Of a stretch of 20,000 nt of DNA, positions 1,684 through 20,000 are shown one piece after another. This DNA comes from Proteromonas lacertae. Its lineage: Eukaryota. Under the pieces are notes generated by a model. That model had not been told where the DNA came from. It worked only from the letters and a program-made list of their open reading frames with translations, and did no database searches. The first letter of the stretch is position 1. Every line of letters starts with the position of its first letter. A program made the translations under genes and the position numbers. The stretch is taken from the NCBI GenBank assembly GCA_002245135.1, contig NGBS01000600.1:119950-139949 (forward strand). The letters are read 5' to 3'.

Positions 1684-2655
1684 ATGATTAACAATTTATT
1701 AATAATCAATTAATCTATATACACTTTTAATTATTTTATACTGTTATATACATTTACTTTATTTACATTTGAGTTATTCAGAAGAACAGAACTATTATAA
1801 CTTAATTATATCTAAGAAAGAATCTCTGAAAATAGAGAATGAAATAAAACACAACCCTCCATATAATGAAGAAGAATTAATATTACCAAGAATTATAACC
1901 TTAAAAGTTAAAAGAAATATAAAAGTTAAGTACAATAAGGATATAAAATATATCATTGCTGTATTATCATCTCCACATAATTATAAAAAAGATATTCTTT
2001 TAGATATAATTACAAAATACACAGATTTATAAAATATACAAAAATGATATTCTTTATTGGAGCATCCATATTAGAAGATGTTGATATTCTAGAGAAAGAA
2101 ATGATTCTATATGATGATGTTGTTCAGTTTCAATTTCAAAATAGTTACTTAAACTTAACTCTACTCTCTATTATGGCTATGCAGTACTGTTATTTCAATT
2201 TTAAGAATATATTATTCTATATTAAAACTGATGATGATATGTTAATTAACTATACACTTTTAAAATATTTAATAAAAACCACTGATCCTAATAGTAACAA
2301 TATATATGGTCATATGCAGAAGGAAAGAAAAGTAAATAGAAACAAAATCAACATAAATTATATACCATATTTACAATATCCTTATGATTATTTACCAGAG
2401 TATGTATTTGGTGCGTTAATAATTGTCAGTAAATATTCACTAACTAAATTATACAATCAAACTTTATATAGTCAATATTATGTATGGAGAGAAGACATAA
2501 ATCTTGGAATTTTATGTAATATAACAAAATGTAAAGTTAAACAATTTCCCTCCAAAATAGATATTTTATTGCAAAATAGTAGTTGCAAAATATATGATAA
2601 TGTGATAGCAATAGAGTTTAAGTCTTTAAAGGATAATTTTTATTGCTCATATTAA
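1684..2655 (+). pseudogene. GT31 beta-1,3-galactosyl/GlcNAc-transferase family gene, frameshifted (ORFs 1769-2032 and 2044-2655 are one gene)
   Basis: Motifs IIAVLSSPHN, FFIG, E..LYDDVV.F.F.NSYLNLT, KTDDD (2224-2238), PEYVFG and EDINLG. Adding one A to the A6 run at 1985-1990 restores YKKRYSFR... in frame with ORF 2044. The TM segment lies in frame at 1706-1768; the start at ATG 1684 also needs a shift. Confidence 0.8.
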
Positions 2656-2845
2656 TCGATAAATATATAAAGACTATACTACAATTATGCATCAACACTA
2701 GTTAGAATAACAATTTATCCATAACAATTTTTGCAATACAGTGATTTTGTATTTACTAGGTAGATATAAGAAATGAATACTGCAGAGAGGATGAAATTAT
2801 GTTGTATGATGATGATAATGTAGTAGAATCATCTTTTGATCTTCC

Positions 2846-3623
2846 TTTAATAATAATAATATATATATATATATAGTACTTGCATTTTGAAATATCTTCT
2901 TTGTTTCAAAGGTATGTTGTGCGCCGTTTGTCATAGTTAACCGTTTGTCTACCAGACACTTTTAAAACAAACTAAATGTATATTCTTACTTGTCTTGATT
3001 AAAAATTGTTACTTTTATACTTACTTTGCTATATAACCTTACCTCTGCAGTATACACTTTTGTTAATATAAATAGTTTGAATATTTGTGCCGTTTGTTTT
3101 CTAGAAATTTTTGAAACAAACTAAATTCATATTTAGCTAAAATAAACTAAAATACATTAGCTGAAATGATTAGAATATAATAATTATTAAATCCTTCTAT
3201 ATAAAAGAAAACATGTAAAAAATTGGCTTGAGTAATGCTTGATTCTGTATTTTCTTTTTTCATTTTAAATGTCTTATGATCAACATTAAGTTGTTCTAAT
3301 CATTTCAGCTAATGTATTTTAGTCTATATTAGCTAAATATGCATTTAATTTGCTTCAAAAATTTCTAGAAAACAAACGGCACAAATATTCAAACTATTTA
3401 TATTAACAAAAGAGTATACTGCAGAGGTAAGGTTATATAACAAAGTAAGTATAAAAGTAACAATTTTTAATCATGACAAGTAAGAATATACATTTAGTTT
3501 GTTTTAAAAGTGTCTGGTAGACAAATGGCCAACTATAACAAACGGCGCACAACATACCTTTGAAACAAAGAAGATATTTCAAAATGCAAGTACTATATAT
3601 ATATATATATTATTATTATTAAA
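2846..3623. repeat. Long inverted repeat (foldback): 330-bp arms 2846-3175 and 3294-3623, 118-bp spacer
   Basis: Direct reverse-complement match read by eye, including an (AAT)n(AT)n microsatellite at both outer ends. Scattered mismatches occur only inside 2915-3554. Confidence 0.95.
2915..3554. mobile_element. Non-autonomous MITE-like element with ~260-bp TIRs (TGTTGTGCGCCGTTTG...CAAACGGCGCACAACA), hAT-associated family
   Basis: The same terminus ends the copy at 6040 and begins the copy at 11590, next to a hAT transposase. Subterminal CCGTTTG motifs repeat at 2924, 2941 and 3090. No ORF. Confidence 0.8.
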
Positions 3624-3747
3624 ATACTTACTTTATAGAAGCATGTACAGCGAAAGGTATAGAAGCATCATTATTTTATAGAAGTACATGCACAGTCACT
3701 CAAGGCATTAAGATATTTCTAGTTATTTTTATACTTAATTGGTAACC

Positions 3748-4268
3748 ATGCAATTCATCGTCAAATGTAGAGATCTCTTACGAAAGGCAAAGCAGAAGAC
3801 AATAGCCCGATGCCATGAAGAACATAAAGCCTTGGAAGGGAACGCTTAACTCACACCTAGATTATGTACTGCAGTAGATGCCATATATAGATCTGGGAAA
3901 CCTACTAAGAATCAACAACCAGCCATCTCCATCAACTCCAGTGATAAAACAAGGGATATAATTAATCAGCTTAAACAACACAGTATACATGAGATTCTTA
4001 AGACAGTCAAGGACAACAATGATCTAATCGACCATGATGGGATGTTCGATAAGATCCAAAGGTAAAGTCACTTCCGATGTGCTGTCTCTTGAGTCTGTAT
4101 CATCGCTTAAGACAATATGAAGATCATCACCTACTCAGGATAGAATCAATGAGGAGGCAAAAACAGCTTAGTAGTCCTCCTAAGAAGAGACCTATAACAA
4201 CACCCTTACTACCATCGCTAGGTGCTTCAAGTGATCCTCCAGCGAAGCATCTACGGATCTACGGATAA
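3748..4268 (+). pseudogene. Decayed orphan gene in a GC-richer patch resembling the 12861-20000 block
   Basis: ATG 3748 frame reads MQFIVKCRDLLRKAKQK... with in-frame TAA at 3847 and 4063, then shifts into ORF 4077-4268. Preceded by AATTGGTAAC at 3737-3746. Confidence 0.5.
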
Positions 4269-4313
4269 GGAACGTGATTCATAATTAAAATAATTAATTA
4301 TATTCTATTGTGT

Positions 4314-5156
4314 TTAGATATGAATGAAATTATTATTACTTATTTCTGATTTATACTCGTTAAATATATCTTTTCTAAAATTGTATAATAAATTAATTTT
4401 TGCATGATATATTTTCATTAAATCTTTGCTAATATTATATTCTTCAAAATATGGTATCATATTTTCAATCATATACTTTTTGAAATTACTGAATATTTTA
4501 TAAGATTCTTCAATACCTACAGGATTATTTATGAAAGGATGAAATTCTGAAAACACTAAATCAAAGCAATGGAGTATATTTTCTTTAATCATTCTAGGAA
4601 TCATGTAATATTCTTCACCTTCTATATCAAATTTTAAAATGTTAAAATCATTATGTCTTATGTTTAACATAAAATAACTAACTATATCGATTGATCTTAT
4701 TTTCATTATTTTAGCACCTCTTTCTGATTTATTATAATATGCAGAACTTCCTAATGTTCCTGAAGTGGATTTAAAATTTATGAATCCACTTCTATTTGAT
4801 ACAACAACAGGACAGTTAACAAAAAAATTACACATATTTGTTACTGTTTTTAAAAAATTAACATTCTCTTCTATAAAATTACATAAATGAGGATTTGCTT
4901 CAAATACATGTACAGTTACTTTATTAGTCGGAAAATGTTGAAAAAAAGGATAAGGCACATGATATGATCTCTTTCTATTTTTATATCCGAAAAGCCATAA
5001 TAATGAGTCTCCATTGTTTGAACCTAAATCATAATATGAAATTTGGTTGTATTTCTTTATATTACAACATTCATATGAGTTGAATGTGTAAACGAATAGA
5101 GATATATACATTAAATTAATTAATAAAATTACATACCACAAAAATACAATTTTCAT
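4314..5156 (-). CDS. FkbM-family (Methyltransf_21-like) SAM-dependent methyltransferase with N-terminal membrane anchor
   Basis: YYDLGSNNGDS (SAM motif I), VHVFEANP, ILKFDIEGEEY, FSEFH; hydrophobic N-terminus. Confidence 0.85.
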   Translation of the reverse strand: MKIVFLWYVILLINLMYISLFVYTFNSYECCNIKKYNQISYYDLGSNNGDSLLWLFGYKNRKRSYHVPYPFFQHFPTNKVTVHVFEANPHLCNFIEENVNFLKTVTNMCNFFVNCPVVVSNRSGFINFKSTSGTLGSSAYYNKSERGAKIMKIRSIDIVSYFMLNIRHNDFNILKFDIEGEEYYMIPRMIKENILHCFDLVFSEFHPFINNPVGIEESYKIFSNFKKYMIENMIPYFEEYNISKDLMKIYHAKINLLYNFRKDIFNEYKSEISNNNFIHI

Positions 5157-5179
5157 ATTTATTGTGATGATAATTAATT

Positions 5180-5553
5180 ATGTTTATATATATATCAGTT
5201 ATATTTTGTATTTTAGAATCGTTAATTCTTCTAAATATATTTCATTTAAGTTGCTGCACAACAATTCACATAATGATAACTGAATGTAATAGATATACTT
5301 ATTTAAATAAAACATTATTCTCTTTATATTCACATTTACTGAAATATGACCAAAAATTAGATTATACAATTATATTTATTGATCAAGGTACTTTAGAAAG
5401 ATACATAATAAGAACAAATTATAATTTAAGAAATACCTTTTTTATAAGCCCTAAGAATTATGAATACTCGTTTAAAATACTATTCTCTTACATTTATTAT
5501 AATTATGTCTTTTTGCTAGAAGAAGATTGGATTATAAACAAAGAAATATATAA
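5180..5553 (+). pseudogene. GT-A fold (GT2-like) glycosyltransferase, 3'-truncated by a TIR element
   Basis: TM anchor, then IMITECNR..YL..TL.SL, IFIDQG and YVFLLEEDW (DxD-like). The frame runs into repeat-derived sequence from ~5555 and stops at 5593. Confidence 0.65.
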
Positions 5554-5554
5554 T

Positions 5555-6040
5555 TGTACTAGACATTTTTTAACTTTTACATTACTTAACTAATTTCACA
5601 ATTAACAATGTCCTACCTCTGAAGTATACTCTTTTTATTAATATAAAAAGTTAATATAGACAAAAATACACTACTTTAAATCTTTATATAAATAAAGAAA
5701 TGCAAAAATAGGCTTGAGTGAGGCTTGATTCTGTATTTTCTTTTTTCATTTTAAATGTCTTATGATCAACATTAAGTTGTTCTAATCATTTCAGCTAATG
5801 TATTTTAGTCTATATTAGCTAAATATGCATTTAATTTGCTTCAAAAATTTCTAGAAAACAAACGGCACAAATATTCAAACTATTTATATTAACAAAAGAG
5901 TATACTGCAGAGGTAAGGTTATATAACAAAGTAAGTATAAAAGTAACAATTTTTAATCATGACAAGTAAGAATATACATTTAGTTTGTTTTAAAAGTGTC
6001 TGGTAGACAAATGGCCAACTATAACAAATGGCGCACAACA
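5555..6040. mobile_element. Second copy of the MITE-like element; right arm near-identical to copy 1, left arm degenerate
   Basis: 5711-6040 aligns ungapped to 3225-3554 (offset 2486) with only a few mismatches. 5555-5655 has remnants of the left arm (cctacctctgaagtatactc...). The left boundary is approximate. Confidence 0.85.
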
Positions 6041-6099
6041 GAGGATTATTACCTAGAGATCAGTGATTAGCCAAAGGTGAGGAGAGTAACCAAAGATGA

Positions 6100-7133
6100 T
6101 CATATAGAACTGTAATCACTTGATGATTTATCCTTTTCTATAATATCTTTATCCAACAAATCTTGTAATGCACATTTAGCATTTAAATAATCATCAATAC
6201 TAAAACCGAATTTCGCAGTTTTGATATAAGGCTTAACTCTCGGATCTAACAAACAACATATCAAAGGTATTGGTGATTCTTTTATAATTATTGTTAGCAT
6301 TTGATTTATATCATACTTTATACTATCATAAATTTCATTAACTTCAGAACATTTATCTTTACTTAATTCAAATAGCTCTTTCTGCAGTTTTAATATAGAT
6401 AAAAGGGTTTAACAACACTAACAACTTCATTTAGTATTTCAAAATGGATTGACGTTTTTGTGGGGATATATGGTAGTAATGGTTCATTTTTAGGTATTAT
6501 TCCATTAATATTTTCAATAATTTCATTATATTCTTGATTCTTTTGATCAACAAATCTAATAATTTAGGTTTCTCTTCATTAATTTAATTTAACACTAAGT
6601 ATAAGCTGCTCCATCAAGTAATAGTCACAGTGCCTACTGATATATTCTGTTTTGCTTTATTAGACACTGTTCGTAGTTGTTTACCCAAAGTAAAGAATGT
6701 CTGAATTGTCTCATCAACAGGATTACCTAAATATAATAGAACTTTATACCTTTACTTGTGCAGATTTATTTCTTAAATAATCATTATATACATCTCTGCG
6801 AGGTGTTAAGTATCCCAGCTTATAACAGAATATTCTGAATTCTGTTAAATCTAATATTGTAGTATAAACTTCATTGTAAGTAATAAACTTATATTAATTA
6901 TCTTTTATATCTTCCACATTTATTTTACTATCAACTGGATCTTTGTAGTTATGATGACTCATCATATGCCCTTTTATGGCTTTACTGTTTTTAACATTAC
7001 ATTTGTATTGATTACCACATTTACATATCCAGTAAGTCGCTGAAAAATTGAAATCTAATCCTTCTAACTTTTCATCTTCATATAATCTTCTTTCTTAGCT
7101 TGATGTATCAGACGGTAGATTTATTTCAGTCAT
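6100..7133 (-). pseudogene. Degraded hAT-superfamily transposase
   Basis: Minus strand encodes a BED-like finger (WICKCGNQYKC...KGHMMSHH, ~6950-7035), T*WSSLY matching the TRWNS motif (~6600-6620) and CLLDPRVK (ORF 6100-6300). Many stops and frameshifts; no C-terminal dimerisation domain seen. Confidence 0.75.
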
Positions 7134-7357
7134 AGATTTAATGAAAAATGATAACTAAAATTATCAAGCCAAAAAGCTTGTTTGTTTTTCTTTGAAAAAT
7201 TATTTCTCTTTTATAACATAATATAAAAAATGCTTGAAAGCTTTATTTTTGAAAATTATCTTAAGAAAAAGTAAAATCACTGTAACATACTGAATAAGAC
7301 ATTATGGTCATTGCTGGATATCAATATTCATAGAGAAATATATTTAATGATTCTTTA

Positions 7358-8088
7358 ATGTTATATATATCATTGTATTTATTTTCCTTTTATATATTTT
7401 ATTTATTGTTTTTATTCTATAGTAATACTATAATTAATTTTGAAATTAATGGTGATTCAATATTATGGGTGTTTGGCTATAGAAACATTAATACTTCTTA
7501 TCATGTGCCTTATCCATTATTTCAACATTTTCCTACATCAAAAGTATTAGTTCCTTCTTTTGAAGCAAATCCAATGTTATGCAAAATTATTAACCAAAAT
7601 ACCAATTTTCTAATGAAAGTTAGGAACAATAAATTTTACAATAACATCAGGAATATAAGGAAGCTCATTATATTGCAACATGACAAAAAGATCTAAACAA
7701 GTTAAAGTAGTATCTGTCAATATTGTGAATTATATCCTTAAATATATAAATATTGATGATTTTAATATTCTAAAATTTGATATAGAAGGCGAGAGTATTT
7801 TATGGTTCCTAATTTAATTGAATTAAATGTTCTAAAATATTATGATATTGTTTATTCTGAGTGTCACCCTAATATAAACTATCCAATAAGTTTAAGTGAG
7901 TAAAATAAATATTTTCATCTTTTATAAATTATATGAATGAGAATACTATTCCATATAATGAAGAATATAATATTAGCAATGAGTTACAGAAAATATACCA
8001 TTATAAATTGAATACTTTATTTTATTTTAGAAATGATTTATTTAATTATCATAATAATTATAAAGATAATAATTATATTTCCTTGTAA
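7358..8088 (+). pseudogene. FkbM-family methyltransferase pseudogene, paralog of 4314-5156
   Basis: NGDSILWVFGY..SYHVPYPLFQHFPT...FEANP, then DDFNILKFDIEGE, FSECHP and IPYNEEYNIS in shifting frames. Internal deletions (motif I YYDLGS is missing) and an in-frame TAA near 7901. Confidence 0.85.
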
Positions 8089-8202
8089 TAAAATATGGAG
8101 GTTATTAAGGTTTAAACAAATTATTATGGCAGTAAGAATTATTAACCTTTTGATAAATCACTTTTTAATTGATTATAAAGCAAAAAATGTAAATAATATA
8201 AT

Positions 8203-9240
8203 ATGGCCATCTTAATGACTTGTTTTATAATACATTTTATAATTTTGTTATTATATATATATAATTTCTTTTGTATATATAGAAAACATCTCAATCTGTT
8301 TTCTGGAATTGACAGATTAATATATTATGAAAATAAATATAAAAAATGTAATTATACGAAAAATATTCTTTATTGTGGAAGTAAATTTGAAGGGTATAAA
8401 ATAGAACAAATAGATTTCAATACACATTATTTTTATGTAACAAATTTATCAAGAATTATTAAAATTAACAAATATTCAAAAAATAATAAGTGCAGAACTT
8501 CAAAGAATAATATTTTTATTGGTATAACTTCTGCACCAAACTATTATTTACAAAGATCTTCATTTAGATTATCATATAGCAAACATAAAAAATGTGTAAA
8601 GTATGCGTTCTTTACAGGAATGTCTTATAAACACTATGAAAATGATTATCTATTAAAAGAACAGCACCAATATAATGATATAGTTATTTTTGATTTTGTA
8701 TCAACCTATTTTAATTCCAGCTTATTGATGGTTTTAATTATGAAATGGGTGTATAAAAACTGTAAAGAATTTTTATATTTCGTATATCATACATCTGATG
8801 TATTTTTTAATGTTGATTTATTTTTTCAACATTATAATAATACAGATTATAATTATATAGCTAAACTAATATATAGCGCAAAAGTAATAAGGACTAATAG
8901 GAGTAGGTTTTTTATACCTTTAAATATTTACAATGAATCTGTTTTTCCAACATTTCCAAGTGGACCATGTATTGCTATATCATATAATACTATTAAAAGT
9001 ATAAGTTTATTCAACTATAACAGAATAACAAATGTTTGGATTGATGATGTAATAATTGGTATGGTGTTTAATTATTTGCATATCAAAGGTAAAGATATAA
9101 ATAAAGAATGTATAAATAATTATCCCAATTATAAATTAGTACCAAGTTTAAATTACATTAAAAACAAAATTATATATATACATTCTTTGCCACCTGCTGC
9201 TATATATTATTTACATAACAGCTTAATGAGAATAATATAA
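8203..9240 (+). CDS. GT31 galactosyltransferase-family type II membrane protein
   Basis: TM anchor; IGITSAPN...RSSFR, FFTG, E...YNDIV..DFVSTYFN, FPTFPSG, IDDVIIG. The DxD position reads HTSD. Confidence 0.85.
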   Translation: MAILMTCFIIHFIILLLYIYNFFCIYRKHLNLFSGIDRLIYYENKYKKCNYTKNILYCGSKFEGYKIEQIDFNTHYFYVTNLSRIIKINKYSKNNKCRTSKNNIFIGITSAPNYYLQRSSFRLSYSKHKKCVKYAFFTGMSYKHYENDYLLKEQHQYNDIVIFDFVSTYFNSSLLMVLIMKWVYKNCKEFLYFVYHTSDVFFNVDLFFQHYNNTDYNYIAKLIYSAKVIRTNRSRFFIPLNIYNESVFPTFPSGPCIAISYNTIKSISLFNYNRITNVWIDDVIIGMVFNYLHIKGKDINKECINNYPNYKLVPSLNYIKNKIIYIHSLPPAAIYYLHNSLMRII

Positions 9241-9628
9241 TATAACTATAATTCATATATAAATTAATTACCTATAAATAGAAAAACTCTTCTTTATAAT
9301 CATCTTTTTTTTAAAAAAGAGTTTTTCAAGTTATGCATATAGCATACATAAATTTAGATATAAATGTTTTTAATAATAAAATATATGTTATAACATTTTC
9401 AAATATCCATTAGTTTAAGAGTTACACTCTTCTTAATCTATATCAAAAGATTAGTGAATAAATAAGTCACTATAAGATATATAATACTCACATCCTATGA
9501 CAGAGTCAATTCTCCTATGTTTGTTTTTAGTATGGATGAAAGTGGTTTATATTATGATAAAAGTAAGCTATAACAGCAAACATAATCTTTAAATGATCTA
9601 ATTTCATTTCAAAATTTATATAAATATA

Positions 9629-10366
9629 ATGAATATCTACTGCAAAGTAATAGTAGCTTATATATTTTTATTAGCTATATATAATATTCTTATAATTTAT
9701 TCATCTAAAAGTATATACGTAGTAGTTTCATCTTGCTCAAATAAGACATATATGAATATAAAAGAATCACTAATTCCATTTGAAGTTATTTTTTTGTTTT
9801 GCAATAGAAGTACAAATTTGGTTGATTCATATGAGGCAGGTCCTATGTTAGATTTTATCATCAAAAATTATAATAGGAAAGGTAATATAAAATATATTTT
9901 TATTCATGATCATGACATTTCATGGCACTATAAACAGAGCATTTATATTAGATTCAGAAATAAGAAACTTTTAAATTATTTCAAAAATGTCAAATTCGGA
10001 GGAATCTATTGTATGAATATCAAATTTGGTATAAAAAGTAGATATGAGTTTTTATTTAACTTAACTTACGGAGTTGATAAATATATGAGAATGAACAAAT
10101 ATGTAAACATGTCTATATTGCATTTATATACACAAAAAATAGTTTTTCCTTGTTGCTCAACATTTATTGTAGATAGTTCACTAATTAAAGAATATCCTGT
10201 TTCTATTTTTAGAAACATAAGAAAAGGACTAAAAGAATATGTAAAAATTTACAAAAAAAACAAATTATCAGCTCAGTATATGGAATATATGTGGATTATA
10301 TTATTTGGAAGAAAAAAAATAGAATATCCCTATGATTGCAATGTAAATAATATTTATACTATGTAA
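9629..10366 (+). CDS. DUF3431-family membrane-anchored protein (putative glycosyltransferase-like)
   Basis: EA.PMLDFIIKNY, YIFIHDH..SWH, PCCSTFIV, I..YP and MEYMW..LFG match the DUF3431 pattern as I recall it. Confidence 0.75.
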   Translation: MNIYCKVIVAYIFLLAIYNILIIYSSKSIYVVVSSCSNKTYMNIKESLIPFEVIFLFCNRSTNLVDSYEAGPMLDFIIKNYNRKGNIKYIFIHDHDISWHYKQSIYIRFRNKKLLNYFKNVKFGGIYCMNIKFGIKSRYEFLFNLTYGVDKYMRMNKYVNMSILHLYTQKIVFPCCSTFIVDSSLIKEYPVSIFRNIRKGLKEYVKIYKKNKLSAQYMEYMWIILFGRKKIEYPYDCNVNNIYTM

Positions 10367-10394
10367 TTGATTTTTTAATTTATTTATTTTGTTA

Positions 10395-11408
10395 CTATAA
10401 TATATCTTTAGGATATGCAAATAAACTAAATTCACATGACCATGGTTCACAGTTATTGAACTGATGATATTCATAAATATAATTATCAAGATATGCTTCT
10501 AATAGATGCCTTATTTTAAAGTACTCATCATAGTTATGATATATAGCTATACTTAAAACAGGTCTTTGTAGAATAATTGTATTTTTTGCGCCAAAAATAA
10601 AATTTAATGCTGATCCTTCTATATCCACTTTAATAAATCCTATCCTATTTTTATTGTAAAAATGTTCATTATCAAGTGTATCTATTTTTACAATTATTTT
10701 TTTTTCATTCCCTTTTCCTATTCCCACTCCTCCATGACCATAATCAGACAAAGAAATATTTCCTGAAAAATTACTTAATCCCATTTCATGTATTATATAT
10801 TTTTCTGGTTTAAGTAAATTTCTGACTATTGTTCTTTTTAATTTCTTTAAATTTATTCTAGAAAATTCATATAAATGTATTATTTTTTGCGTATAGTTTT
10901 GTAATACAACCAATGAATCTCCAATACATGAACCTACATCAATAATGTCCTTGTCATATATATATTTCTTAATTTTAATACTTGAAAATCTTAATCCATG
11001 GTGATAGTAAAAAACTTCTTCAGTATAATATTCTAAAGAGTATAACTGCTTATATGTTTCTATTTCTTTTTCAAACAATTTATGGTTTGTAACTTGATGT
11101 TTTGTTAAATGCTTGATTAATCTATCACATAATAATGAATCGATAATTATGTTAAACTGAGAATCTAGAGCAGAAATTGATTTTTCATCACTACTTGACT
11201 TTAAAAACATAAAATATGCAGAAATGAATTTCTTTATTTTACTATAATTATTATTGTATTTATTTAACAAATTATTCTTTAATTCTATATTAGTTTCGTA
11301 TAGATTATATCCTGTAGTAGCACATCTGTTATTTTCATTTAAAATATAGCTTTTATAAAATATTAAAATAAACAATATAATACATATGCATAGGATTATA
11401 ATTTTCAT
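10395..11408 (-). CDS. FkbM-family SAM-dependent methyltransferase (second subfamily), membrane-anchored
   Basis: FYYHHGL, DIIDVGSCIGDS, IHLYEF, IGFIKVDIEGS, GAKNTI..QRPVLSIAIYH. The likely start is MKIIILCICIILF at 11408; the ORF extends to 11492. Confidence 0.88.
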   Translation of the reverse strand: MKIIILCICIILFILIFYKSYILNENNRCATTGYNLYETNIELKNNLLNKYNNNYSKIKKFISAYFMFLKSSSDEKSISALDSQFNIIIDSLLCDRLIKHLTKHQVTNHKLFEKEIETYKQLYSLEYYTEEVFYYHHGLRFSSIKIKKYIYDKDIIDVGSCIGDSLVVLQNYTQKIIHLYEFSRINLKKLKRTIVRNLLKPEKYIIHEMGLSNFSGNISLSDYGHGGVGIGKGNEKKIIVKIDTLDNEHFYNKNRIGFIKVDIEGSALNFIFGAKNTIILQRPVLSIAIYHNYDEYFKIRHLLEAYLDNYIYEYHQFNNCEPWSCEFSLFAYPKDIL

Positions 11409-11589
11409 GTTAATTTGATGTTCATTACTATAATAAGCAAATGAATATATATAAAAATGTAATGCCGAAAATAGCATATTTAAATTGACCATTCAAACAC
11501 CACTATTCAAGTGTCAAGCTTTTTATAATACTGGCGGAATAGGATTTACAATTAAAGTGACAAGGCAAAAACAAATTAATGAAAATATA

Positions 11590-12860
11590 TGTTGTGTGCA
11601 GTTTGTCATAGTTGGCCGTTTGTCTAACACACACTTTTAAAACAAACTAAATACATATTTTTACTTGTATTGATGAAAAATTGTTAGATTTATACTTACT
11701 TTGTTATATGACCTACCTCTTCAGTTTAATTTATCATTGGAAAAATATTGTTTTATAAAATATATACTATCGTACAACATACACATTTGTTAAATCTTCT
11801 TATTATTTTATTTATTTTTAGTATTCTAATCCAAATGATAATAAGAACTAATGTTTTTATATTTTATAAATCTCTATTTCTCGAAATTAGCACTTTCATT
11901 TCAATATGCTCAGATGATATATTACATTTGTTTAAATTGCTTAGTCTTACAGTTTCACTAAAGATTCATTCTGATACACTAGAAGATGGTTGGCGTGCTA
12001 AGTACTTTTTCGCAATTTTAAAAACACGTAGAAAATAAGCTTTAACAGTAAGCCATATATTAGATAGATCTTCTCCAGTGCTAAATATTTCTCTATATTC
12101 TAGATAATTCATCACTTCTTTATCATTACTTAATCTTCTACCCTTTATTGATTTACTTTTTAAATACTTATCTAGTTCATTGTTATAACTAATATATTCA
12201 TCTTCAATATCTAGAGTGTTATCATTATCATAATCTATTAAATTATCTAATGTATTCTTAGCTTCGCTATATTCTTCGGCAGTAAATCCTAATAAAGGTA
12301 TAGCAAACAACATAATAAAGGTATTGGTGTTTCATTGTTAATTATTTTTATCTTTTTCTATGAGATTTCTTTTTATATTTTTTGCATATTCATTTTGTTT
12401 TGATGGATATATATCGGTATTAAGTTCATTAATTACTTTCTTTATATTTAACATAGCCATCCCCAAATTGGTTTCTCTTTTTTCCATTAACAATGTTATG
12501 TTGTAAAATGGTTTCAAAATGTTTACTAAATAATCAAGAACAATATAATTAGCTGATTTATTACTCGTATAATAGAAAAAAGTGAATTCCATCTTGTATT
12601 TTTTATTATGCCTACAGAATTCTCAATCTTTTTATGATTTACTACAGTTTATAAAAGTTTAGATAATCCAACAAATTAATTTATTGTCTGTTTAACAATA
12701 TTTTCTTATTCACCACTTTTTTTATCCAATTCATCCAATGCTTTGTTGATAGACAGTTGGATTGTATGAAGAAAACATCTTATATTTGGGATATTTATAT
12801 CTTTGATGGATTTTATAACATTTGCTACATTTTCGCTTGTAATGCAATTAAATCTGATAT
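11590..12860 (-). mobile_element. 3' portion of a hAT DNA transposon: TIR 11590-~11725 plus transposase remnant, 5' part interrupted at ~12860
   Basis: 11590-11725 is a diverged copy of the MITE TIR (tgttgtgtgcagtttgtcatagttggccgtttgtct...). It lies downstream of the transposase fragments. Confidence 0.8.
11864..12860 (-). pseudogene. hAT transposase pseudogene (catalytic and dimerisation regions)
   Basis: ITSENVAN, RCFLHTIQLSI (CxxH motif), TRWNS (12583-12597), LKPF..IT..ME and LARQPSSSVSE*IFS (dimerisation motif), ending RNRDL* at 11864. Confidence 0.88.
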
Positions 12861-13125
12861 AGTGTGACTTCATTGATGCAATCGATGAAGCTCCCGTAAG
12901 GGTCAACTCTGAATTTAGAAGGGGACTAACTCCTAGAACACTCGTTAGAACTCTGTGACAATATCCCATAGTCCCATTTACGTAAGGTTCCTACGGGATT
13001 CCTCCCAACAGGGTCTACTTCTCAACGGGGTCTGCTTCCCTACGGGGACTCCTGTAAGCTATTTCTATACCTACCTATACCTATCTATGAGACGATCTCC
13101 TACGGGTACTCCTGGAAGCTATCTA
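12861..13125. repeat. Terminal hairpin and short direct repeats at the left end of the insert
   Basis: Hairpin cttcattgat-gca-atcgatgaag (12868-12890). 24-bp repeat cctacggg(g/t)actcctg(t/g)aagctat at 13039 and 13099, partial at 12990. 17-bp tandem caac(a/g)gggtct(a/g)ctt at 13006 and 13023. Confidence 0.75.
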
Positions 13126-13237
13126 GAAGTGTTGGTTACCTCAAGGTGATGATTCTAATCATGCTCTTGACTCTCCTTGCTACGCTGGTGATCTTGTAAG
13201 GGCTTTTAATTGAACCGTGGAAACCAATCGTGGAACC

Positions 13238-13297
13238 GGGAGTTTACAATTGTTAACTTGTTACCAATTGTTAACTCCTGGACTTTACAATTGTTAA
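13238..13297. promoter_or_regulatory. Triple CAATTGTTAA(C) motif upstream of the first ORF of the insert; putative promoter element
   Basis: Copies at 13247, 13265 and 13288; related copies at 15161, 15191-15204, 19091 and 3737. Confidence 0.5.
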
Positions 13298-13332
13298 GAT
13301 CTCCATTGAGTCTTTTCTGATCTGTGAATACT

Positions 13333-14075
13333 ATGAAGAGAACCAGACCTATCAATGCCTCCGAGGAATCTTCTAACGATGAGGAAGACACTAAGGTGTT
13401 CAGAATTAAGCTTAAGCCGGAGTATAAGAAGTTGAAGGCTGAGATGATTGCTGCTGCCGATGATGATGATGTTCCTCCTCCTCTCCCTCCTAAACCTCCT
13501 AAACCTCCTAAATCTATACTAACAATCACTAACTCCAAGGATGAAGACGATGATGATGTTCCTTTCAATGCAGAGATCATGGACCTGGTAAGAGACTTCA
13601 AAGCTGACAATACACCGATAAAGCTAGGGTCCGTGATTACTTACCTTGATTATAAACGATGTTGTTTGAATGAGTTCCTGGATGCCCTTTACAATTACGT
13701 GTCGAAGGAGATCACCTTGAATGAAGACATATCATGACCAGGATGAAGAAGCGCTGTAAGCTTATCAGATACAACAATCGCAAGGAAGAAGACTATGGAT
13801 ACATCCCCCTAGGCCATCTCATGGAGCTTTGCAACTGCACCTGTGCATTCAGAACATTGAAGTATCTTCTTGGCTATGACATCGAACAGCTTACTGCTAG
13901 CAAGAAGATGAAGCAGTACATGGACTTCCTCCAGCCAACCTTGAAGGTTAAGTACTTATTGAATATCTTCTCAGTAATGAAGAACAAGTTCGATCAGTTC
14001 TGTATCATTAGTCCTAAGATGGATGATCTTGACCTTACTGAATCTACGGATGTTGAATCCTCCGGTGAGGACTAA
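13333..14075 (+). CDS. Orphan ORF pair (13324-13737 and 13734-14075), possibly one frameshifted gene; acidic and Pro-rich N-terminus
   Basis: ATGA overlap at 13734-13737; DDDDVPPPLPPKPPKPPK tract; no family recognised. Confidence 0.5.
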
Positions 14076-14158
14076 CTAGCATTACTTAAACCTGATAATC
14101 TCTTGTTCTATTCTATCTCAGCGTTGTCCTTGAAGGTTCCTTTGAAGTGTCTTTTCAA

Positions 14159-14248
14159 TTGTTCATTGCATTGTTGTCTTGAGGAGATCACTTACGGGGA
14201 CGCTTAGTGTTATTTAAGCAATCCCCCAAGACAACAAACAATAAACAA
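14159..14248. terminator. Imperfect long hairpin between convergent genes; putative 3'-end signal
   Basis: ttgttgtcttg (14171-14181) pairs perfectly with caagacaacaa (14227-14237), extendable to ~30 bp with mismatches and G-U pairs. Confidence 0.5.
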
Positions 14249-14347
14249 AGACTAATTAATTACTTCTTTAAGTGGACGTGGAAGGATCGGAGATCTCTAC
14301 AGAAGGAAGTAAGGTTGAGGTTCAGCTTCTCTAATTGAATCGCCTTC

Positions 14348-15102
14348 TTAAGGATTGGAATTGATAGATGAAGTCTGGTCATAAACTGATAGAACATTGA
14401 CGGCAAAGTCATCTTCCCAGGAGTTTGTGCTCGAGCCATCGAAGTAGTAGTTCATGATCCATTGCAGTGCTTCCACCTTCCACATCTTGTTATTGTAACT
14501 CAATTGTCCATATCGTTCCTTTGCCGAGAGGACAAAGAAGTTATATTCATCGAGCAGTAGTTGATATACATAGCCTGGGTAAAATCTCTCAGTGATGTTA
14601 AAGACATGATCTTGCGTGGCATTGCTAAGGATCACTATCGGTAGATTTGAAGATAGGCTCATACAATGCATAAGGAGCTGACCGATGGTATAGTCCAGTT
14701 GTTGCATGATGCTATGATCTTCAACCCCGAGGTTGTTAAGGGAACATCTCTGATCGAAGTCTTCCCATAGTTCTTCATCATATAGGAGGCTGGGAATAAG
14801 GTATCGTCAAAGTCAAGGATGATGATTGTCTTGAGAATAGCGATGGAGATCCCCTGGTTGTATTAGTAAGGATGAGCAATGCCTAAGAGTTGATCGAAGG
14901 CTGTTTTATAGGAAGATCGATTCTCTTGACTGGTGACTCCTGGTAATCCATTGACGAATTGCGGACTGTTGCTATACTCCATGTGAGTGTGTTCATAAGG
15001 CATTGCTTTGATGGAGGCTATTTGAGGGTGATCATTCTCGGGAGTAGATTCACCGATAAGTAAAGGAGGACGGTAAGGAGCAATCGATCTAGTAATGACC
15101 AT
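14348..15102 (-). pseudogene. HAD-superfamily hydrolase-like gene split by one TAA and one frameshift
   Basis: ORF 14863-15102 continues past TAA into YNQGISIAILKTIIILDFDDTLFP (DxD motif, 14800-14814). It then shifts into ORF 14348-14707 with IVILSNA, VLSAKERY and WKVEA. Confidence 0.7.
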
Positions 15103-15240
15103 GATTGAAAGGCAAGGAAATTGATCAATGCTGGGAATGTCGATTCATAACTCACTTCGGAATTGTTAACACTTCAGAACTTCTTCCGGCGGGAGTTACC
15201 AATTTACTTAATCGTTCATTTCCTTGGATCTTACTGAGCA

Positions 15241-16694
15241 ATGGATTTTGACTTTGATCGCTTAGTGCTTCCGTTATGGACTTATAGCTTCCGTGAGTTC
15301 TTCTGTCATGACGAAGTGCTGGTAAGCGTCTTTGGAATCCTCCTTATATTGAACGTCCAGATGTTCCTTGAAGATCACCCAGCTATTGAGCATAGCAGTT
15401 GTTGCAGATTGATCCGAAGTATCTTGTTTACCATCCTTCTAATGATGATGCTGATAGCTCTTTGGGTTGCTATGAACTCTATACCTTAAGTAACTTCTCC
15501 TATCGATAAATACTCTTTAATTAACTCTTACCAGATGTTGTTCTTGGGATGGACTTATCATAGCAGGCATCTCTGTATTCAACTTTTTCTGATCCTCCTA
15601 GAGAGACTTTGCCTTATGAATACTCAACAAGCATTATCTACCCGTACTACCTCTAGCCTTGAATTACAACAGTGTGAGCCTATGGCTACTTCTACTCATA
15701 AGAAGTCCAAGGTACTTATCATCACTCCCGTAAAGGTAAAGAATTCACGTTCAATTGCTAAGCGTAGTAAGGCTATGAAGTCATCCACCAATTCCAATGA
15801 CTCCAAGAAGCGTAAGCTTAATAAGTACTTAGCACTCAAGGCACCAGTAATATCTCAATCATCGAAGGCATCTCCTACTGTTGCTAGCACTACACTTAAG
15901 AAGAAGCTCCCCAGAGGCAAGACAACTTCCTCGGCACAGTCATCCAAAGATGTCACTATCAAGAACTTAACGAAGACCTTGAAGTCCATCCGCAGCAAGG
16001 ACAAGATCATTGACTATGTGGCTATATGCTCTGACTTACGAAAACATCTTCGTTCCTGCTATCAACTACTTCAAGAGACTAAAGCAAAAGCTGATAAGCT
16101 CACTTCCGAGGAAGTACGTCTATCATCAGAGATCATGGACAAGATCTTGGAAGCTATAAAGCACTCTAGCAACCTCCTCAACGATGAAGTCAAGAGTCAG
16201 GACGCTTACATTAATAAGATCCTTGACGATCTTAAACTAGCTTCTGTATCTGATCCATCAGTGACAGCTACATCAGTTCCTGCTTCATTACCAACCCCAA
16301 CATCTATTCCCAAAGATGATATTCAAGTAACTACCGATAGCTTTAAGGTAAAGCAAGAGAATCAATCATCCAGTTCTACACCCTCATACACTACTTCAAT
16401 TCACCGATAGTAAGTTCCTTGGTCTGGCAATCCAACAACCTCTGGACTATCAACACCAGCAAGTACTTCCCCATCAATTCCTTTACAAGTTCCCATGCAG
16501 GTTCCTATTCAGGCTCCTTTGAAAACTACAAAGACTGTTAAAGGTAAGAGATCTACAAAATCATCCTTTCTACTCCTCCAGCATCAATGAACTACTACTC
16601 TAACTACAATCCTTATGCTGCTTACGTTCCATCATTCAGAGGAGTCTATCAGCAACAGGCCCAACAAATACCGACCTTATCCAGATACTTCTAA
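15241..16694 (+). pseudogene. Orphan gene(s): N-terminal multi-TM region, Lys/Ser-rich linker, coiled-coil-like segment, S/T/P-rich tail
   Basis: ORFs 15241-15489 and 15535-16410 share a frame and are separated only by TAA 15487. The frame continues after TAG-TAA (16408-16413) to 16590, and a shifted frame ends at 16694. Confidence 0.5.
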
Positions 16695-16870
16695 GTTCCT
16701 TAATCACTTATTGTTAATAACCTTGAGTTGTTTACGGGCTGCTGCAATCATCGTCTAGGATCTATCGGAGATGCTTATTATCACTCCCTTTATCATCTCC
16801 TATCGATGATATCTACTTTGATTATTGTCCATCCCTACATAAAACCTTTAAGATCACTTAGGTAATTTAC

Positions 16871-18980
16871 TTAAAGGCAATGATCACCATCACAATAGCT
16901 TACTTCAATCGGGAATGGTTGATTGTAGTCTCCATCTAGTTCATTTCCTTGAACTTCCTCGGGACTTAGATCGATCTTGATAATCCCTTGAGGAGCTTCT
17001 GATAAAGTCAGGTTCTGATACTTGACGTAGGAGTCGGTAATACTCCTCCTTGGAGATCTCTTCATAAGGCATCTGTGGGTAGGTTGTTTTCATCTGGTCA
17101 GTGGCAACTGAAGGTAAGAATGATACTCCCTTGAGTTGATATTGAAAGTAGTCTAGTGCGTGTTGAATATGGGGCCCTTCTAGTTTTCGGATCAAAGGTA
17201 ATCGTACAGGACACTTGATTGTCAGCCCAGTACTTCTGAACGAAGGCTAGCAACATCAGCTGCTCGTACATCGGTACCTCCTTGATAGTTCTAACTCCTT
17301 TTACTTCGACTGGGAAGGAGATCACCGAGGTTGTCTCTGGGCAATAGAAGTCATCTTCAATCGGATACTTTGCATGCTTCAAGACTCTAATTAATGGACT
17401 ATTCTTATCTATCCTAATCCTTCTAACGTAGTAGTTGCTCTGTGGGAAGTGAATCCCTGGAGTTGCTCAAGCAAGTAGACTGACTGTACCACTTGGCTTT
17501 ACCGATGTTGTCTTGATTGATCGTGGAATGCAGAACCACTCGAGTAGATCCTATCCCAGTGTTGGATAGTTGAATAGCCTTCTTCCATCCAAGTCTTGAG
17601 AATATCAACTCCGTACTTATCAATGAACTGTGCTATCCCACTGATACTGCATCCGATCCTTCTATTCCTTAACATCACTCTGTTGGTCTCTGGCCAGTGA
17701 GTCATCCCCAGAGTCACAGTCTTGGCATATAGGTAAGCAAACTTTAGTGTCCTTAAGAACTCTCCTAGATTATGTTGACGATAAGGAAACGTCTCTACCA
17801 GGCAACACATCTCATAAAACTCCAGCGATTGTTCTAGACAAGGATTACCACCGAGAACTCTTCGATCCTTCTTATTCTTTGGATCGCCCTAGCCTTCCAT
17901 ACTCTTGCATGTTCTTCAACCAGCAGATACCAGGCTCTCCATTCTTCCGTATGCGTTCAGTTATATTGCTATAGTCCATTCCTTTGATTGCAAAGACACT
18001 GTTGTTGGATGCCCATCCAAAGGAGCTTCTGTCTGGGTTGAGATCATAGTCCTTGAGGTTAAGGAACTCTTCATCGTGATGTTCTCCAAAGGCTATCTCT
18101 GCGGATCTTTGGACATTACCACTGACTATGCATCTACCGATGAGGTTTCCTAAGTCCACGATTGCTCTTGTTGATATGGCTTACCGATGAGATCATCCAG
18201 GACTAGTCGGATAGAGTGATGAAGCTCCTTCAGAGGAGTTGCCCACTAGCAACTCCTCCGAATACTTTAAGTACCTTTCCCTTGTCTCGGATTTCTCGTA
18301 GTTGAAGTAAACAGCTGGCTGCTTTACGAAGTGAAACATCTTAACCTTGTTACCTTCCACATCCTCAGATTCATACATCTCACGCCTTCCATAGTAGACT
18401 CCAACAAGAGACTCAAGGAGTTCACCCAGCCTTCTCGGGAGTCAGGAATCTCGTAATACATGGACTGTTGTAAGCGATCGGGTCCTTGAATGATAATCTT
18501 TTCTTTACCGGTAGTATCAAAACCTACTCCAACTCCCAGCATACTCGCATCCATCAGGAACTTGAAGGGCTTTACGGGATCAATATCGATATCCTTAGTT
18601 GATACGAATGCACAGTTGTTGAGTGCAGCACTTAGCTTCTTCCAGAGGTAGGAACTTCATGTTGAACATTAGATCATACATCTCCTTAGCTGAGCTTAAT
18701 CCTTGCTCTTCATTCCATCCTAAGCATTGCTCTTGTATGTAGTCCTTCTGCAGTGTATAAGTGCCTTCAACAACTCTTCTTACCGTCTGATACCATTCTT
18801 CATAGACTGGAGGATCATCGTTGATTAACCTGGAGTACGTTCTACGATAGATGAACTCACCGAGACCATTGAATCCAAAGGGGCCTTTACGGTCTTATAC
18901 TTATCGATGAAACTATCGGGGAGATGAAATGATAAGGACGACTATGCCGTGCAAGACATATTGCTTATTGCTAGACTCAT
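16871..18980 (-). pseudogene. nrdJ: Monomeric class II (adenosylcobalamin-dependent) ribonucleotide reductase, fragmented
   Basis: Reassembled motifs: GFNGLGEFIYRRTYSR, AALNNCAFVST, FLMDASMLGVGVGFD, IPDSREGWV, VSGNVQRSAEIAFG, GEPG, GGNPCLEQ..E.CCLVE (thiyl Cys at 17838-17840), NRRIGCS, VKPSGTVSLLA, WADNQVSCT, YPQMPYEEI and C-terminal CDGDHC. Many frameshifts, stops and one motif deletion. Confidence 0.95.
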
Positions 18981-19398
18981 AAGAAAGTCAATGACTAGGA
19001 GTTGTCGGTGATGCCAAGATCCCTTGAAGTAAGTTGTACCATAAACATCCGTATTACGTATTAGTAGGTTCCATTCCCATTTTCCCCGGACAATTGTTAT
19101 TAGCTTCTAGTGGCTCCAGATACGTCAAGGGGGTCTCACTTCATCAGCTCAGTATAATCCAACATAAAAACTCCCATTAATACTTACCCAACTGCGAGGT
19201 GCTTTCTCTTGACTGCTCCAGCTTACGACTTCACTGACATGGAATAGCACTCGTGTTTATCCTTCCAGGCAAAGCTCTTCTTCTTCTAGACATCATCTTC
19301 AAATCACTTTGGTTATAAGTTCCTTTGAAGTTCATCCTAGAGCATCTCCGTAGTGTTGATGTTAGTGCGTTATAGAACACCCCAACAAAGTCAATTAA

Positions 19399-20000
19399 TT
19401 AGAAGGGAAGATCGTTAAGCAAGTTACATTGAACTCCACGGTCCTTGAATACTACAATTGGCCTTGATACTCCCACGATATGATCTGTTTCAGATACCTT
19501 ACAATAATGACCACTTCCATCTTCAAGAGGAACGTAAAGTGTTGGTCTACGACATCTAAGGTTAGTTATTATCTCCTCCTTTACCTTCATTGACTTCAAA
19601 GGTAGTTCAGGTGCACACTCAGGTATTGGAATCTCGAATGCTTCTGGGGAGTACTCAGGTATTGGAATATCAACTGGGTTGTTGACGATAAGCTTATCAG
19701 AGAAGGTAAGTTTCTTATGGTGTTGATGATTCTTCTTTGACGATACCTACGCACTCTTCACAGCTCTTGTAATATCCTCCATCCCGTTTCAGAAACTCCT
19801 TCCTTGGGTGGATCTTGAAGCACCTATAGCATAAGACTCCATTCAAAGGTAACTTATTCTAATATAGATTCACACGTCTCATCCTGTATAGTTGTTGATA
19901 CTTATTGCGTTCTTCACGGCATTGACTACAGATCTTATAGAAGTGCTTGCAGTCTCGTTTAATTTCTCTAGGGCGTCTTCTACGACTATAGCAACAAATA
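19399..20000 (-). pseudogene. Orphan gene with two CxxC...YKxCxxC zinc-finger-like repeats (5' end outside the window)
   Basis: Minus frame from the window end: ..CCYSR...FYKICSQCRE...NLY*NK...CYRCFK...EF....YYKSCEEC. It then shifts to a 12-aa tandem (DIPIPEYSPEAF/EIPIPECAPELP; 16-bp repeat at 19617 and 19653) and ORF 19399-19599. Confidence 0.55.

What the first reader, a model, noticed from the sequence alone, without database searches (positions are those of the whole stretch)
12861..20000. Candidate novel endogenous large DNA virus or giant mobile element integrated into a hAT transposase
Seen: an abrupt GC rise exactly where the hAT frame (…IRFNCITSEN) loses hAT-like sequence, followed by more than 7 kb of compact intronless orphan genes. 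The block has its own upstream motif and hairpins, and carries nucleotide-metabolism (RNR), HAD and CxxC-finger genes. Known: RNR plus many orphans is typical of large dsDNA viruses. Inference: a fossil virus of this protist-like host, inserted after the transposon, possibly of an undescribed lineage.
Basis: partly seen in the sequence, partly recalled or inferred. Interest (0 to 1): 0.85.

Follow-up and report, generated by a model that had tools for sequence, protein, structure and literature searches.

The report
Integrated virus end carrying B12 reductase
A GC-rich block with its own gene signals interrupts a broken transposon in an AT-rich genome, likely that of a gut protist related to Blastocystis; it is likely one end of an integrated Polinton-like DNA virus that probably took an oxygen-independent, vitamin-B12 DNA-precursor enzyme from its host lineage, but no capsid, polymerase or integrase gene was found in the visible part.

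Summary
Observation largely confirmed. GC steps from 23.5% to 41.9% at 12861, cutting a decayed hAT transposase (PF05699). The block opens with a 470-bp non-coding arm with hairpins and short repeats, followed by about eight genes with their own codon usage and an intergenic motif. Only one gene is identifiable: an intronless monomeric class II (B12) ribonucleotide reductase with 9 frameshifts and 1 stop. It groups with Blastocystis enzymes (99/99 once three rows are left out); grouping with the sampled giant-virus or phage copies is rejected. So it points to host capture, not giant-virus ancestry. The flanking genes (FkbM, GT92, GT31, DUF3431, hAT) fit the published Proteromonas repertoire, a lineage with 285 endogenous capsid genes, many pPolB/A32/integrase genes and 11 class II RNR domains. 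Best reading (0.5): the terminal arm of an integrated Polinton-like virus. A larger undescribed virus (0.2) is not excluded. 'Fossil' is doubtful, because conserved RNR residues are almost intact and the frameshifts may be assembly errors. No hallmark gene, far end, target-site duplication or junction read could be tested.

The parts
11864..12860 (-). 3' half of a decayed hAT transposase (second acidic motif region, CxxH motif, dimerisation domain), broken by frameshifts and stops; cut at about 12860
   Evidence: PF05699 22.6 bits, cut-off 21.4; frames and weak similarity to the second hAT relic
11588..11725 (+). 140-bp copy of a repeat end shared with 2915-3554 and 5676-6040. It faces the right way to be this hAT's terminus, but that is not shown
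   Evidence: 87% identity
12861..13332 (.). Non-coding terminal arm of the block; begins with AG; holds short repeats and hairpins; candidate terminal inverted repeat (partner not in window)
   Evidence: change point; no coding signal above 3 bits in any frame; repeats
12868..12890 (.). 10-bp stem hairpin (one G-T pair) 7 nt inside the junction
   Evidence: -6.0 kcal/mol, 0 of 300 shuffles as low, window chosen post hoc
13039..13122 (+). Two copies of a 24-nt repeat (13039-13062, 13099-13122)
   Evidence: 2 matches, 0 in 200 shuffles
13236..13298 (.). 22-bp-arm hairpin built from three copies of the AATTGTTA motif, upstream of the first gene
13333..13737 (+). Orphan ORF, 134 aa, acidic and proline-rich
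   Evidence: coding signal; no significant family hit; fold pLDDT 43
13734..14075 (+). Orphan ORF, 113 aa, CxCxC motif, overlapping the previous stop by 4 nt
   Evidence: coding signal; no relatives
14348..14862 (-). HAD-like gene (DxDDT motif) split over two frames; putative phosphatase, lead only
   Evidence: frames; Atlas 0.90/0.89/0.88/0.86; no real hit
14863..15102 (-). Orphan ORF, 79 aa; may be a further upstream piece of the HAD-like gene
15103..15240 (.). Divergent intergenic stretch with AATTGTTA and GGGAGTTACCAATT, the same words as upstream of the first gene
15241..15489 (+). Orphan ORF, 82 aa, hydrophobic
   Evidence: no family hit; weak coding signal
15535..16730 (+). Long low-complexity gene (Lys/Ser-rich, then Ser/Thr/Pro-rich); open to 16410, and probably continues in other frames
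   Evidence: no significant family hit
16974..18935 (-). Monomeric class II (adenosylcobalamin) ribonucleotide reductase, intronless, 9 frameshifts and 1 stop, 64% identical to a Blastocystis enzyme
   Evidence: PF17975 and PF21995; TIGR02505 pieces; PDB 1L1L; alignment; trees
19399..20000 (-). Gene with two CxxC...CxxC zinc-finger-like units and a proline-rich linker; broken; runs off the window
   Evidence: weak PHROGs HNH hit, E 0.022; no relatives for the C-terminal piece
3737..4276 (.). Separate 540-bp patch with the block's composition, starting at an exact GTTACCAATT motif: likely a one-gene relic of the same element class
   Evidence: GC 41%; z 5.9 under the block model, held-out block pieces 5.0-7.5, host model 1.6; edges and motif; no sequence homology to the block

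Best explanation
The block is likely the terminal arm and accessory-gene region of an integrated Polinton-like (double-jelly-roll) DNA virus, which likely inserted into an already present hAT transposase in a genome that is probably of a Proteromonas-type anaerobic gut stramenopile.

Shown: the sharp boundary, the non-coding hairpin/repeat arm, the separate codon usage and intergenic motif, and an intronless class II RNR that groups with Blastocystis enzymes.

Inferred mechanism: an element-encoded integrase, expected in the unseen part, joined the AG end into the transposase and displaced its 5' half. The arm would be one terminal inverted repeat, and its outer hairpin might prime replication. 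The AATTGTTA/GTTACCAATT words would be the element's promoter. The RNR was probably captured long ago from the host lineage (long branch; GC3 0.49 against 0.17 in host genes). It would supply dNTPs with the host's B12 in an oxygen-poor gut, where the class Ia enzyme usual in giant viruses cannot work. This copy may be dead, or only badly assembled.
For: 1. Boundary at 12861 in mid-hAT, but at the edge of a 470-bp non-coding arm with hairpins and repeats. Polinton TIRs are 100-1500 bp, and palindromes at element ends beside the TSD are described for virophages and a PLV subtype in Halocafeteria.
2. The host side carries FkbM x2, GT31 x2, GT92, DUF3431 and hAT. In the published InterPro table Proteromonas lacertae has 70, 59, 48, 7 and 47 of these; all eight Blastocystis have 0 FkbM and 0 DUF3431.
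3. The same table gives P. lacertae 172 pPolB, 60 A32 ATPase and 54 rve integrase domains, with no poxvirus-VLTF3 row and no row with 'capsid'. A survey found 285 endogenous MCP genes there.
4. It has 11 class II RNR alpha-helical domains against 2-5 in Blastocystis, which would fit extra element-borne copies.
5. Window RNR + Blastocystis group is 99/99, with AU p 0.02, 0.002 and 0.0006 against three viral groupings.
6. RNRs occur in 51 marine PLV genomes and in one EMALE type.
7. A second patch of the same composition lies inside host DNA.
Against: 1. No MCP, pPolB, ATPase, protease or integrase was found in 7.1 kb. That is a long hallmark-free stretch for a 13-30 kb element.
2. About 23% of the block is intergenic, against 5-10% in EMALEs.
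3. The host is inferred from gene families only. Its GC (23.5%) is below the 27% given for P. lacertae and close to tortoise Blastocystis (21.5-21.8%). Other AT-rich protists were not compared.
4. The 11-domain count could be host paralogues or split gene models.
5. Class II RNRs also occur in NCLDV contigs (L058 has Capsid_NCLDV), and one HAD-like Atlas lead is an NCLDV-rich cluster (0.88).
6. Tree support was 91, 94 and 86/93 in the three larger sets and reached 99/99 only after L077, L078 and L094 were left out. No oomycete, amoebozoan, Euglena or Proteromonas enzyme was in the trees, and the AU groups were named after earlier trees had been seen.
7. An AG near a change point with an 89-nt plausible range is weak evidence.
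Confidence: 0.5

Rival explanations
1. The block is the end of a larger endogenous virus (Nucleocytoviricota, mirusvirus or an undescribed group) infecting anaerobic gut stramenopiles.
For: 7.1 kb of accessory-type genes without a hallmark; loose gene spacing and its own upstream motif; a 2-kb metabolic gene; class II RNRs in NCLDV-type contigs L058, L064, L077, L002; HAD-like lead in an NCLDV-rich cluster.
Against: The RNR does not group with those contigs (AU p 0.02 and 0.002). No non-RNR part of the block matches any of the 95 loci held. The P. lacertae domain table shows Polinton-type rather than NCLDV markers, though gene prediction may miss broken viral genes.
Confidence: 0.2
2. The block is a non-viral, cargo-carrying DNA transposon (rolling-circle or DDE/recombinase type) without a capsid.
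For: A sub-terminal hairpin a few bases inside the end resembles a Helitron 3' end (recalled, not tested against a library); host-lineage RNR as cargo; a stray one-gene patch elsewhere.
Against: The end lacks the CTRR that I recall for Helitrons (one search shows the junction). The genes have a uniform non-host codon usage and a shared upstream motif, which points to a long separate genome history rather than recently captured fragments. No transposase or helicase was found in the window.
Confidence: 0.12
3. The junction is an assembly chimera between host DNA and unrelated DNA (a repeat copy from elsewhere in the genome, a free virus or a contaminant).
For: The join is at a repeat (hAT); the block is full of one-base indels, as in false consensus contigs of multicopy EVEs; no reads were seen.
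Against: The break falls at the outer edge of a long non-coding arm with a terminal hairpin rather than inside a block gene. A second patch of the same DNA type is embedded in host sequence on both sides. The RNR is of the Blastocystis group, not bacterial; only 1 GTDB locus was confirmed, at 63%.
Confidence: 0.1
4. The block is ordinary or horizontally acquired cellular DNA (a GC-rich host region or a piece of another stramenopile), and the RNR is a housekeeping paralogue.
For: Class II RNR is a normal cellular gene of Blastocystis; human Blastocystis subtypes have 39-55% GC.
Against: The RNR has no intron and a long branch (0.54-0.62). The orphans tested have no relatives among 5.8 billion proteins or 1.84 billion representatives, although Blastocystis proteomes are in the first collection. 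No recognisable cellular gene lies beside the RNR.
Confidence: 0.08

Closest known systems
Endogenous double-jelly-roll viruses (PLVs) of Proteromonas lacertae: 285 MCP genes (PMC10120064, supplement Tables S1, S3, S4; mentioned in bioRxiv 10.64898/2026.07.28.741278)
   Same: Probably the same kind of host; GC-shifted insertions; frameshifted genes that may be consensus artefacts.
   Different: Those were counted by capsid gene. The window shows no capsid, so identity with that group is untested. I saw no description of their accessory genes or of an RNR.
Halocafeteria seosinensis PLVs and virophages; Cafeteria EMALEs (bioRxiv 10.64898/2026.07.28.741278; PMC8547959)
   Same: Bigyra hosts, TIRs of hundreds of bp, terminal palindromes, type-specific promoter motifs, nesting with host transposons, an RNR subunit gene in EMALE07.
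   Different: Those are mostly lower in GC than the host, whereas here the element is 18 points higher. The EMALE07 gene is a class I small subunit; here it is a whole class II enzyme. There the transposons insert into the virus; here the reverse is inferred.
RNR-bearing marine PLVs (51 genomes; bioRxiv 10.64898/2026.05.28.728513)
   Same: Small eukaryotic DNA viruses carrying an RNR as an accessory gene.
   Different: The class was not stated in the passages I saw (0 occurrences of 'class II'; supplements closed). They are marine virome contigs, not integrated elements of a gut protist.
Monomeric class II RNR (NrdJ/RTPR; Lactobacillus leichmannii 1L1L; eukaryotic clan with Blastocystis, Euglena, Dictyostelium; PMC3605638)
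   Same: Domain set, and three of four checked motif stretches read intact; 64% identity to a Blastocystis enzyme.
   Different: Intronless, GC3 0.49, long branch, broken in this assembly, embedded among orphans.
Giant endogenous viral elements of Nucleocytoviricota
   Same: Orphan-rich, compositionally distinct block with nucleotide-metabolism genes.
   Different: No NCLDV marker was found. Described NCLDV families use oxygen-dependent class Ia RNR (PMC10598087 passages), and the window RNR is rejected as sister to the sampled NCLDV class II copies.

Membership tests
Polinton / Polinton-like virus | Double-jelly-roll major capsid protein, minor capsid protein and A32 ATPase | tested here: inconclusive
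   None found in the 7.1 kb visible; the element runs off the window; no custom PLV MCP profiles were available
Polinton / Polinton-like virus | pPolB or primase-helicase, and rve integrase or tyrosine recombinase | tested here: inconclusive
   Not found in the window; the rest was not available
Polinton / Polinton-like virus | Terminal inverted repeats of 100-1500 bp | not testable with these tools
   One candidate arm, 12861-13332; the partner end is outside the window
Polinton / Polinton-like virus | 5-8 bp target-site duplication; 5'-AG end (the AG rule is recalled, not from a call) | tested here: inconclusive
   The block starts with AG at the ML change point, but the range is 89 nt; the TSD needs the far end
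Polinton / Polinton-like virus | Length 13-40 kb with a GC shift against the host | tested here: inconclusive
   GC shift met; length is at least 7.1 kb, total unknown
Nucleocytoviricota GEVE | NCLDV core genes (MCP, PolB, A32, D5, VLTF3, RNA polymerase) | tested here: inconclusive
   None found in the window; RNR not sister to the sampled NCLDV copies
Mirusviricota | HK97 capsid, terminase, portal | tested here: inconclusive
   No hit in Pfam or PHROGs; no mirusvirus-specific profiles were available
Monomeric class II RNR | RNR_Alpha and insertion domains, RTPR family match, conserved Cys/Asn/Glu motifs | tested here: met
   PF17975 above cut-off, PF21995 E 4e-5; TIGR02505 in four pieces; three of four motif stretches intact, one with a stop
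Monomeric class II RNR | Intact reading frame | tested here: not met
   9 frameshifts and 1 stop in this sequence; real or artefact unresolved
hAT transposase (interrupted element) | C-terminal dimerisation domain | tested here: met
   PF05699 22.6 bits against cut-off 21.4
HAD phosphatase | Motifs I-IV and a Rossmannoid fold | tested here: inconclusive
   DxDDT seen; Atlas NIF lead 0.86; no profile hit; model pLDDT 48 with no Foldseek match
Helitron | Rep-helicase; 5' TC and 3' hairpin plus CTRR (recalled) | tested here: inconclusive
   Sub-terminal hairpin present, CTRR absent at the junction; no Rep-helicase found in the window

The most novel reading that the evidence does not exclude
The block is one end of an undescribed lineage of integrating DNA viruses of anaerobic gut stramenopiles, larger than ordinary Polinton-like viruses and still active. 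It replaced the oxygen-dependent reductase of giant viruses with a B12-dependent one taken from its host, and the frameshifts are only assembly errors.
Probability: 0.2. Interest if true: 0.75.

Novelty: new variant of a known kind. Interest (0 to 1): 0.45.

Why it matters
Endogenous DNA viruses in protists are common, and they have already been counted in Proteromonas by their capsid genes, so the insertion itself is not surprising. The new point is the cargo: a whole oxygen-independent class II RNR, apparently taken from the host lineage, in an integrated eukaryotic virus-like element. If the far part proves to be a PLV or a larger virus, it would be a clear case of a eukaryotic virus adapting its dNTP supply to an anaerobic gut host. 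It would also give a handle on viruses of the Blastocystis/Proteromonas group, for which the egovirus study found no gene-flux link. It is also a caution that an RNR among orphans is no sign of a giant virus.

Tried and rejected
Data that could not be had:
- No whole genome was held and no read data were obtained, so the far end and the junction are untested.

Orphan searches that found nothing:
- 13734-14072 in 5.8 billion proteins, in metagenome contigs and in the Atlas.
- HAD-like pieces in viral contigs, in the PDB by sequence and among 1.84 billion representatives. The 2 hits there are repeat proteins, named as a bacterial prealbumin-like-fold protein and an insect protein; rejected as chance.
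- 19402-19746 in viral contigs.
- 0 of 10 window proteins are in the collection by exact sequence.

Other negative results:
- Single-sequence folds were unusable (pLDDT 48 and 43). Foldseek on the first gave nothing at E<=0.001 in BFVD or PDB. The wide VIA search did not run, and the second model was not searched.
- Rfam: 0 matches.
- The 12 metagenome loci found with the hAT piece encode an unrelated enzyme-like protein in gene-dense, bacterial-looking contigs that shares one short word with the query; rejected. No intact hAT relative was found to fix the junction to the base.
- Earlier-findings look-ups by place, words and host protein returned nothing.

Ideas considered and dropped:
- Blastocystis as host: suggested by the RNR hits and by GC, but weakened by 0 FkbM and 0 DUF3431 in all eight genomes and by the lack of any named hit for the DUF3431 gene.
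- Stop-codon recoding: the one RNR stop lies at a conserved Gly, and the other breaks are frameshifts.
- Homopolymer test of the frameshifts: 4 of 9 lie at runs of 3 or more, against 0.12-0.27 expected per break; inconclusive.
- The careful 42-row tree did not finish; the quick tree was used.


Full report
1. The observation. GC is 23.5% over 1-12860 and 41.9% over 12861-20000; the maximum-likelihood change point is 12861, range 12804-12892. The block differs in more than GC: AAAA/TTTT are at 0.22 of expectation, lysine is mostly AAG, and GC3 is 0.34-0.60 against 0.17 in host genes. Left of the step lies the 3' half of a decayed hAT transposase on the minus strand. Its C-terminal piece passes the PF05699 cut-off when read with X at one stop, and the frame with ITSEN...CFLHTIQL runs into the block. 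No intact relative of this hAT was found, so the junction is placed by composition.

2. Anatomy. The stretch 12861-13332 shows no coding signal. It starts with AG and has a 10-bp hairpin at 12868-12890, two copies of a 24-mer, and a 22-bp hairpin made of three AATTGTTA units. Both hairpins beat 300 of 300 shuffles on windows chosen after seeing them; the arm as a whole does not fold unusually. About eight genes follow on both strands, with about 23% intergenic DNA. AATTGTTA occurs 5 times in the block, always intergenic and upstream of a gene (shuffle mean 0.27), though three hits are one cluster and the word also occurs in the AT-rich host part. Apart from the RNR, nothing was identified in Pfam, PHROGs or NCBIfam. 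The HAD-like gene rests on a DxDDT motif and Atlas leads of 0.86-0.90 to oomycete-, ciliate- and NCLDV-rich clusters and a NIF cluster. The CxxC gene rests on motifs and a weak HNH hit.

3. The RNR. It is a monomeric class II enzyme at 16974-18935 on the minus strand, 64% identical to a Blastocystis protein, with only 9-, 8- and 4-residue insertions (so no intron), 9 frameshifts and 1 stop. Of the 120 hits listed (6664 found), three of the top ten are Blastocystis sp. Blastoise proteins, and a large gut cluster contains a Blastocystis sp. JDR protein. Class II RNR is a known cellular gene of Blastocystis (PMC3605638, passages). Most of the viral loci I checked are phage-like, but L058 carries an NCLDV capsid, and L002, L064, L077 and L095 are GVMAG contigs. 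The window joined the Blastocystis group in all four trees: SH-aLRT 91 (64 rows), 94 (42 rows, quick), 86/93 with the long row L078 inside (21 rows), and 99/99 after leaving out L077, L078 and L094 (18 rows). The group of six in that last tree holds three named Blastocystis proteins and three unnamed ones that cluster with them. AU tests reject window+L058 (p 0.02), window+L058+L064 (0.002) and window+two phages (0.0006). These groups were named after earlier trees had been seen, and no other eukaryotic class II enzyme was available, so 'from the host lineage' is likely, not shown.

4. Dead or mis-assembled? Only 4 of 152 near-invariant positions are changed (2.6%; median of intact rows 0.6%, highest 6.2%), which is little for a gene with nine indels. 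Four of nine breaks lie at runs of three or more bases, a mild and inconclusive excess. Against a pure artefact: there is one stop in a conserved motif, and five host ORFs (1548 codons, chosen because they are intact) have no break. Bellas et al. report that frameshifts in multicopy EVEs are often false consensus (PMC10120064, section 7 read). So 'fossil' is not established.

5. The host. The left 11.5 kb holds GT92, two GT31, two FkbM, DUF3431 and two hAT relics. The DUF3431 gene has 5 relatives, all unnamed. In the InterPro table of PMC12129017 (supplement file 10, rows seen), Proteromonas lacertae has FkbM 70, GT31 59, GT92 48, DUF3431 7 and hAT 47, while all eight Blastocystis have no FkbM or DUF3431. 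This is a lineage-level inference from family counts; GC (23.5% here, 27% in that species) does not match closely, and other AT-rich protists were not compared. The same table gives P. lacertae 172 pPolB, 60 A32, 54 rve and 11 class II RNR alpha-helical domains (Blastocystis 2-5), and the supplement of PMC10120064 lists 285 endogenous MCP genes.

6. A second relic. The patch 3741-4276 is 41% GC and scores like held-out block DNA (z 5.9; block pieces 5.0-7.5; host model 1.6). It begins at an exact GTTACCAATT, whose only other two copies in the window are in block intergenic DNA (noticed post hoc). It shares no sequence with the block. It suggests that DNA of this class is really resident in the genome.

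7. Explanation. I read the block as the terminal arm and accessory region of an integrated virus-like element (about 0.7 for a virus of any class), most likely Polinton-like (0.5), inserted into an older hAT. The order is inferred from the junction lying inside the transposase but at the edge of the arm. Integration by an rve integrase, hairpin priming, promoter function of the motif and dNTP supply under anoxia are all inferred. Rivals: larger virus 0.2, capsid-less cargo transposon 0.12, chimera 0.1, cellular DNA 0.08. It works like a PLV end; membership is not shown, because every defining gene would lie outside the window.

8. Print. What I saw of each paper:
- PMC10690189 / PMC12129017: abstract, passages, supplement rows.
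- PMC10120064: passages, section 7, supplement rows.
- bioRxiv 2026.07.28.741278: passages, section 7.
- Passages only: bioRxiv 2026.05.28.728513, 2026.06.19.733378, 2025.04.19.649669, 2024.03.23.586382, 2023.08.22.554363; PMC8547959, PMC12220804, PMC3605638, PMC5608401, PMC10598087.
RNRs are reported in 51 marine PLV genomes without a class in the passages seen; that preprint's supplements are closed and may state it. A search for 'Proteromonas' with 'ribonucleotide reductase' gave 0 papers. A five-term search on class II RNR, cobalamin, Nucleocytoviricota and Polinton gave 2 papers; I read passages of one. Searches listed nothing describing this combination. The primary Proteromonas genome paper did not appear in my searches and was not seen. 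The 5'-AG rule for Polintons, the Helitron end rule and the hAT and HAD motif patterns are recalled.

9. Verdict. A real, foreign, virus-like insertion of a kind already common in protists, with one notable cargo gene.

Noticed in passing
window 3737-4276: A 540-bp, 41% GC patch with the block's word usage, ORF remnants on the + strand and the block's GTTACCAATT motif at its left edge; a likely one-gene relic of the same element class.
   Followed up: partly
window 2846-3623, 5676-6040, 11588-11725: A repeat family: a 339-bp inverted repeat with a 100-nt spacer ending in (TA)n, a 99% identical copy of its right arm facing into the second hAT relic, and a 140-bp end copy. The core ends read TGT...ACA, so it may be a separate non-autonomous element rather than hAT ends.
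   Followed up: partly
window 6060-7150, minus strand: A second, more complete but heavily broken hAT relic with a BED-finger-like N-terminus and an LDPR motif (weak PF14372 hit, E 0.078), about 42% identical to the first over a 50-codon stretch.
   Followed up: partly
window 692-11492: A cluster of apparently intronless glycan-modifying genes (GT92, GT31 x2, FkbM x2, a broken FkbM paralogue at about 7358-8045, DUF3431), possibly a surface-glycan gene island. CpG is depleted on both sides of the junction (o/e 0.42 and 0.56).
   Followed up: partly
L058:5986-10933: A viral contig carries an NCLDV major capsid protein, a Holliday-junction resolvase and a class II RNR, although described NCLDV families are said to use class Ia; GVMAG contigs L002, L064, L077 and L095 also carry class II RNRs, and L095 has two RNR ORFs in tandem.
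   Followed up: partly
window 14253, 15517, 19394: TAATTAAT/TTAATTAA words lie in intergenic DNA downstream of block genes; possible 3'-end signals.
   Followed up: no
PMC12129017 supplement file 10: Tortoise Blastocystis Rus-B has 36 integrase-like (tyrosine recombinase) domains, 3 viral-coat-subunit domains and a CRESS Rep domain; ST4-BT1 has 4 pPolB and 19 rve domains. These suggest endogenous viral elements, and the word 'viral' does not occur in the preprint's main text outside the references.
   Followed up: no
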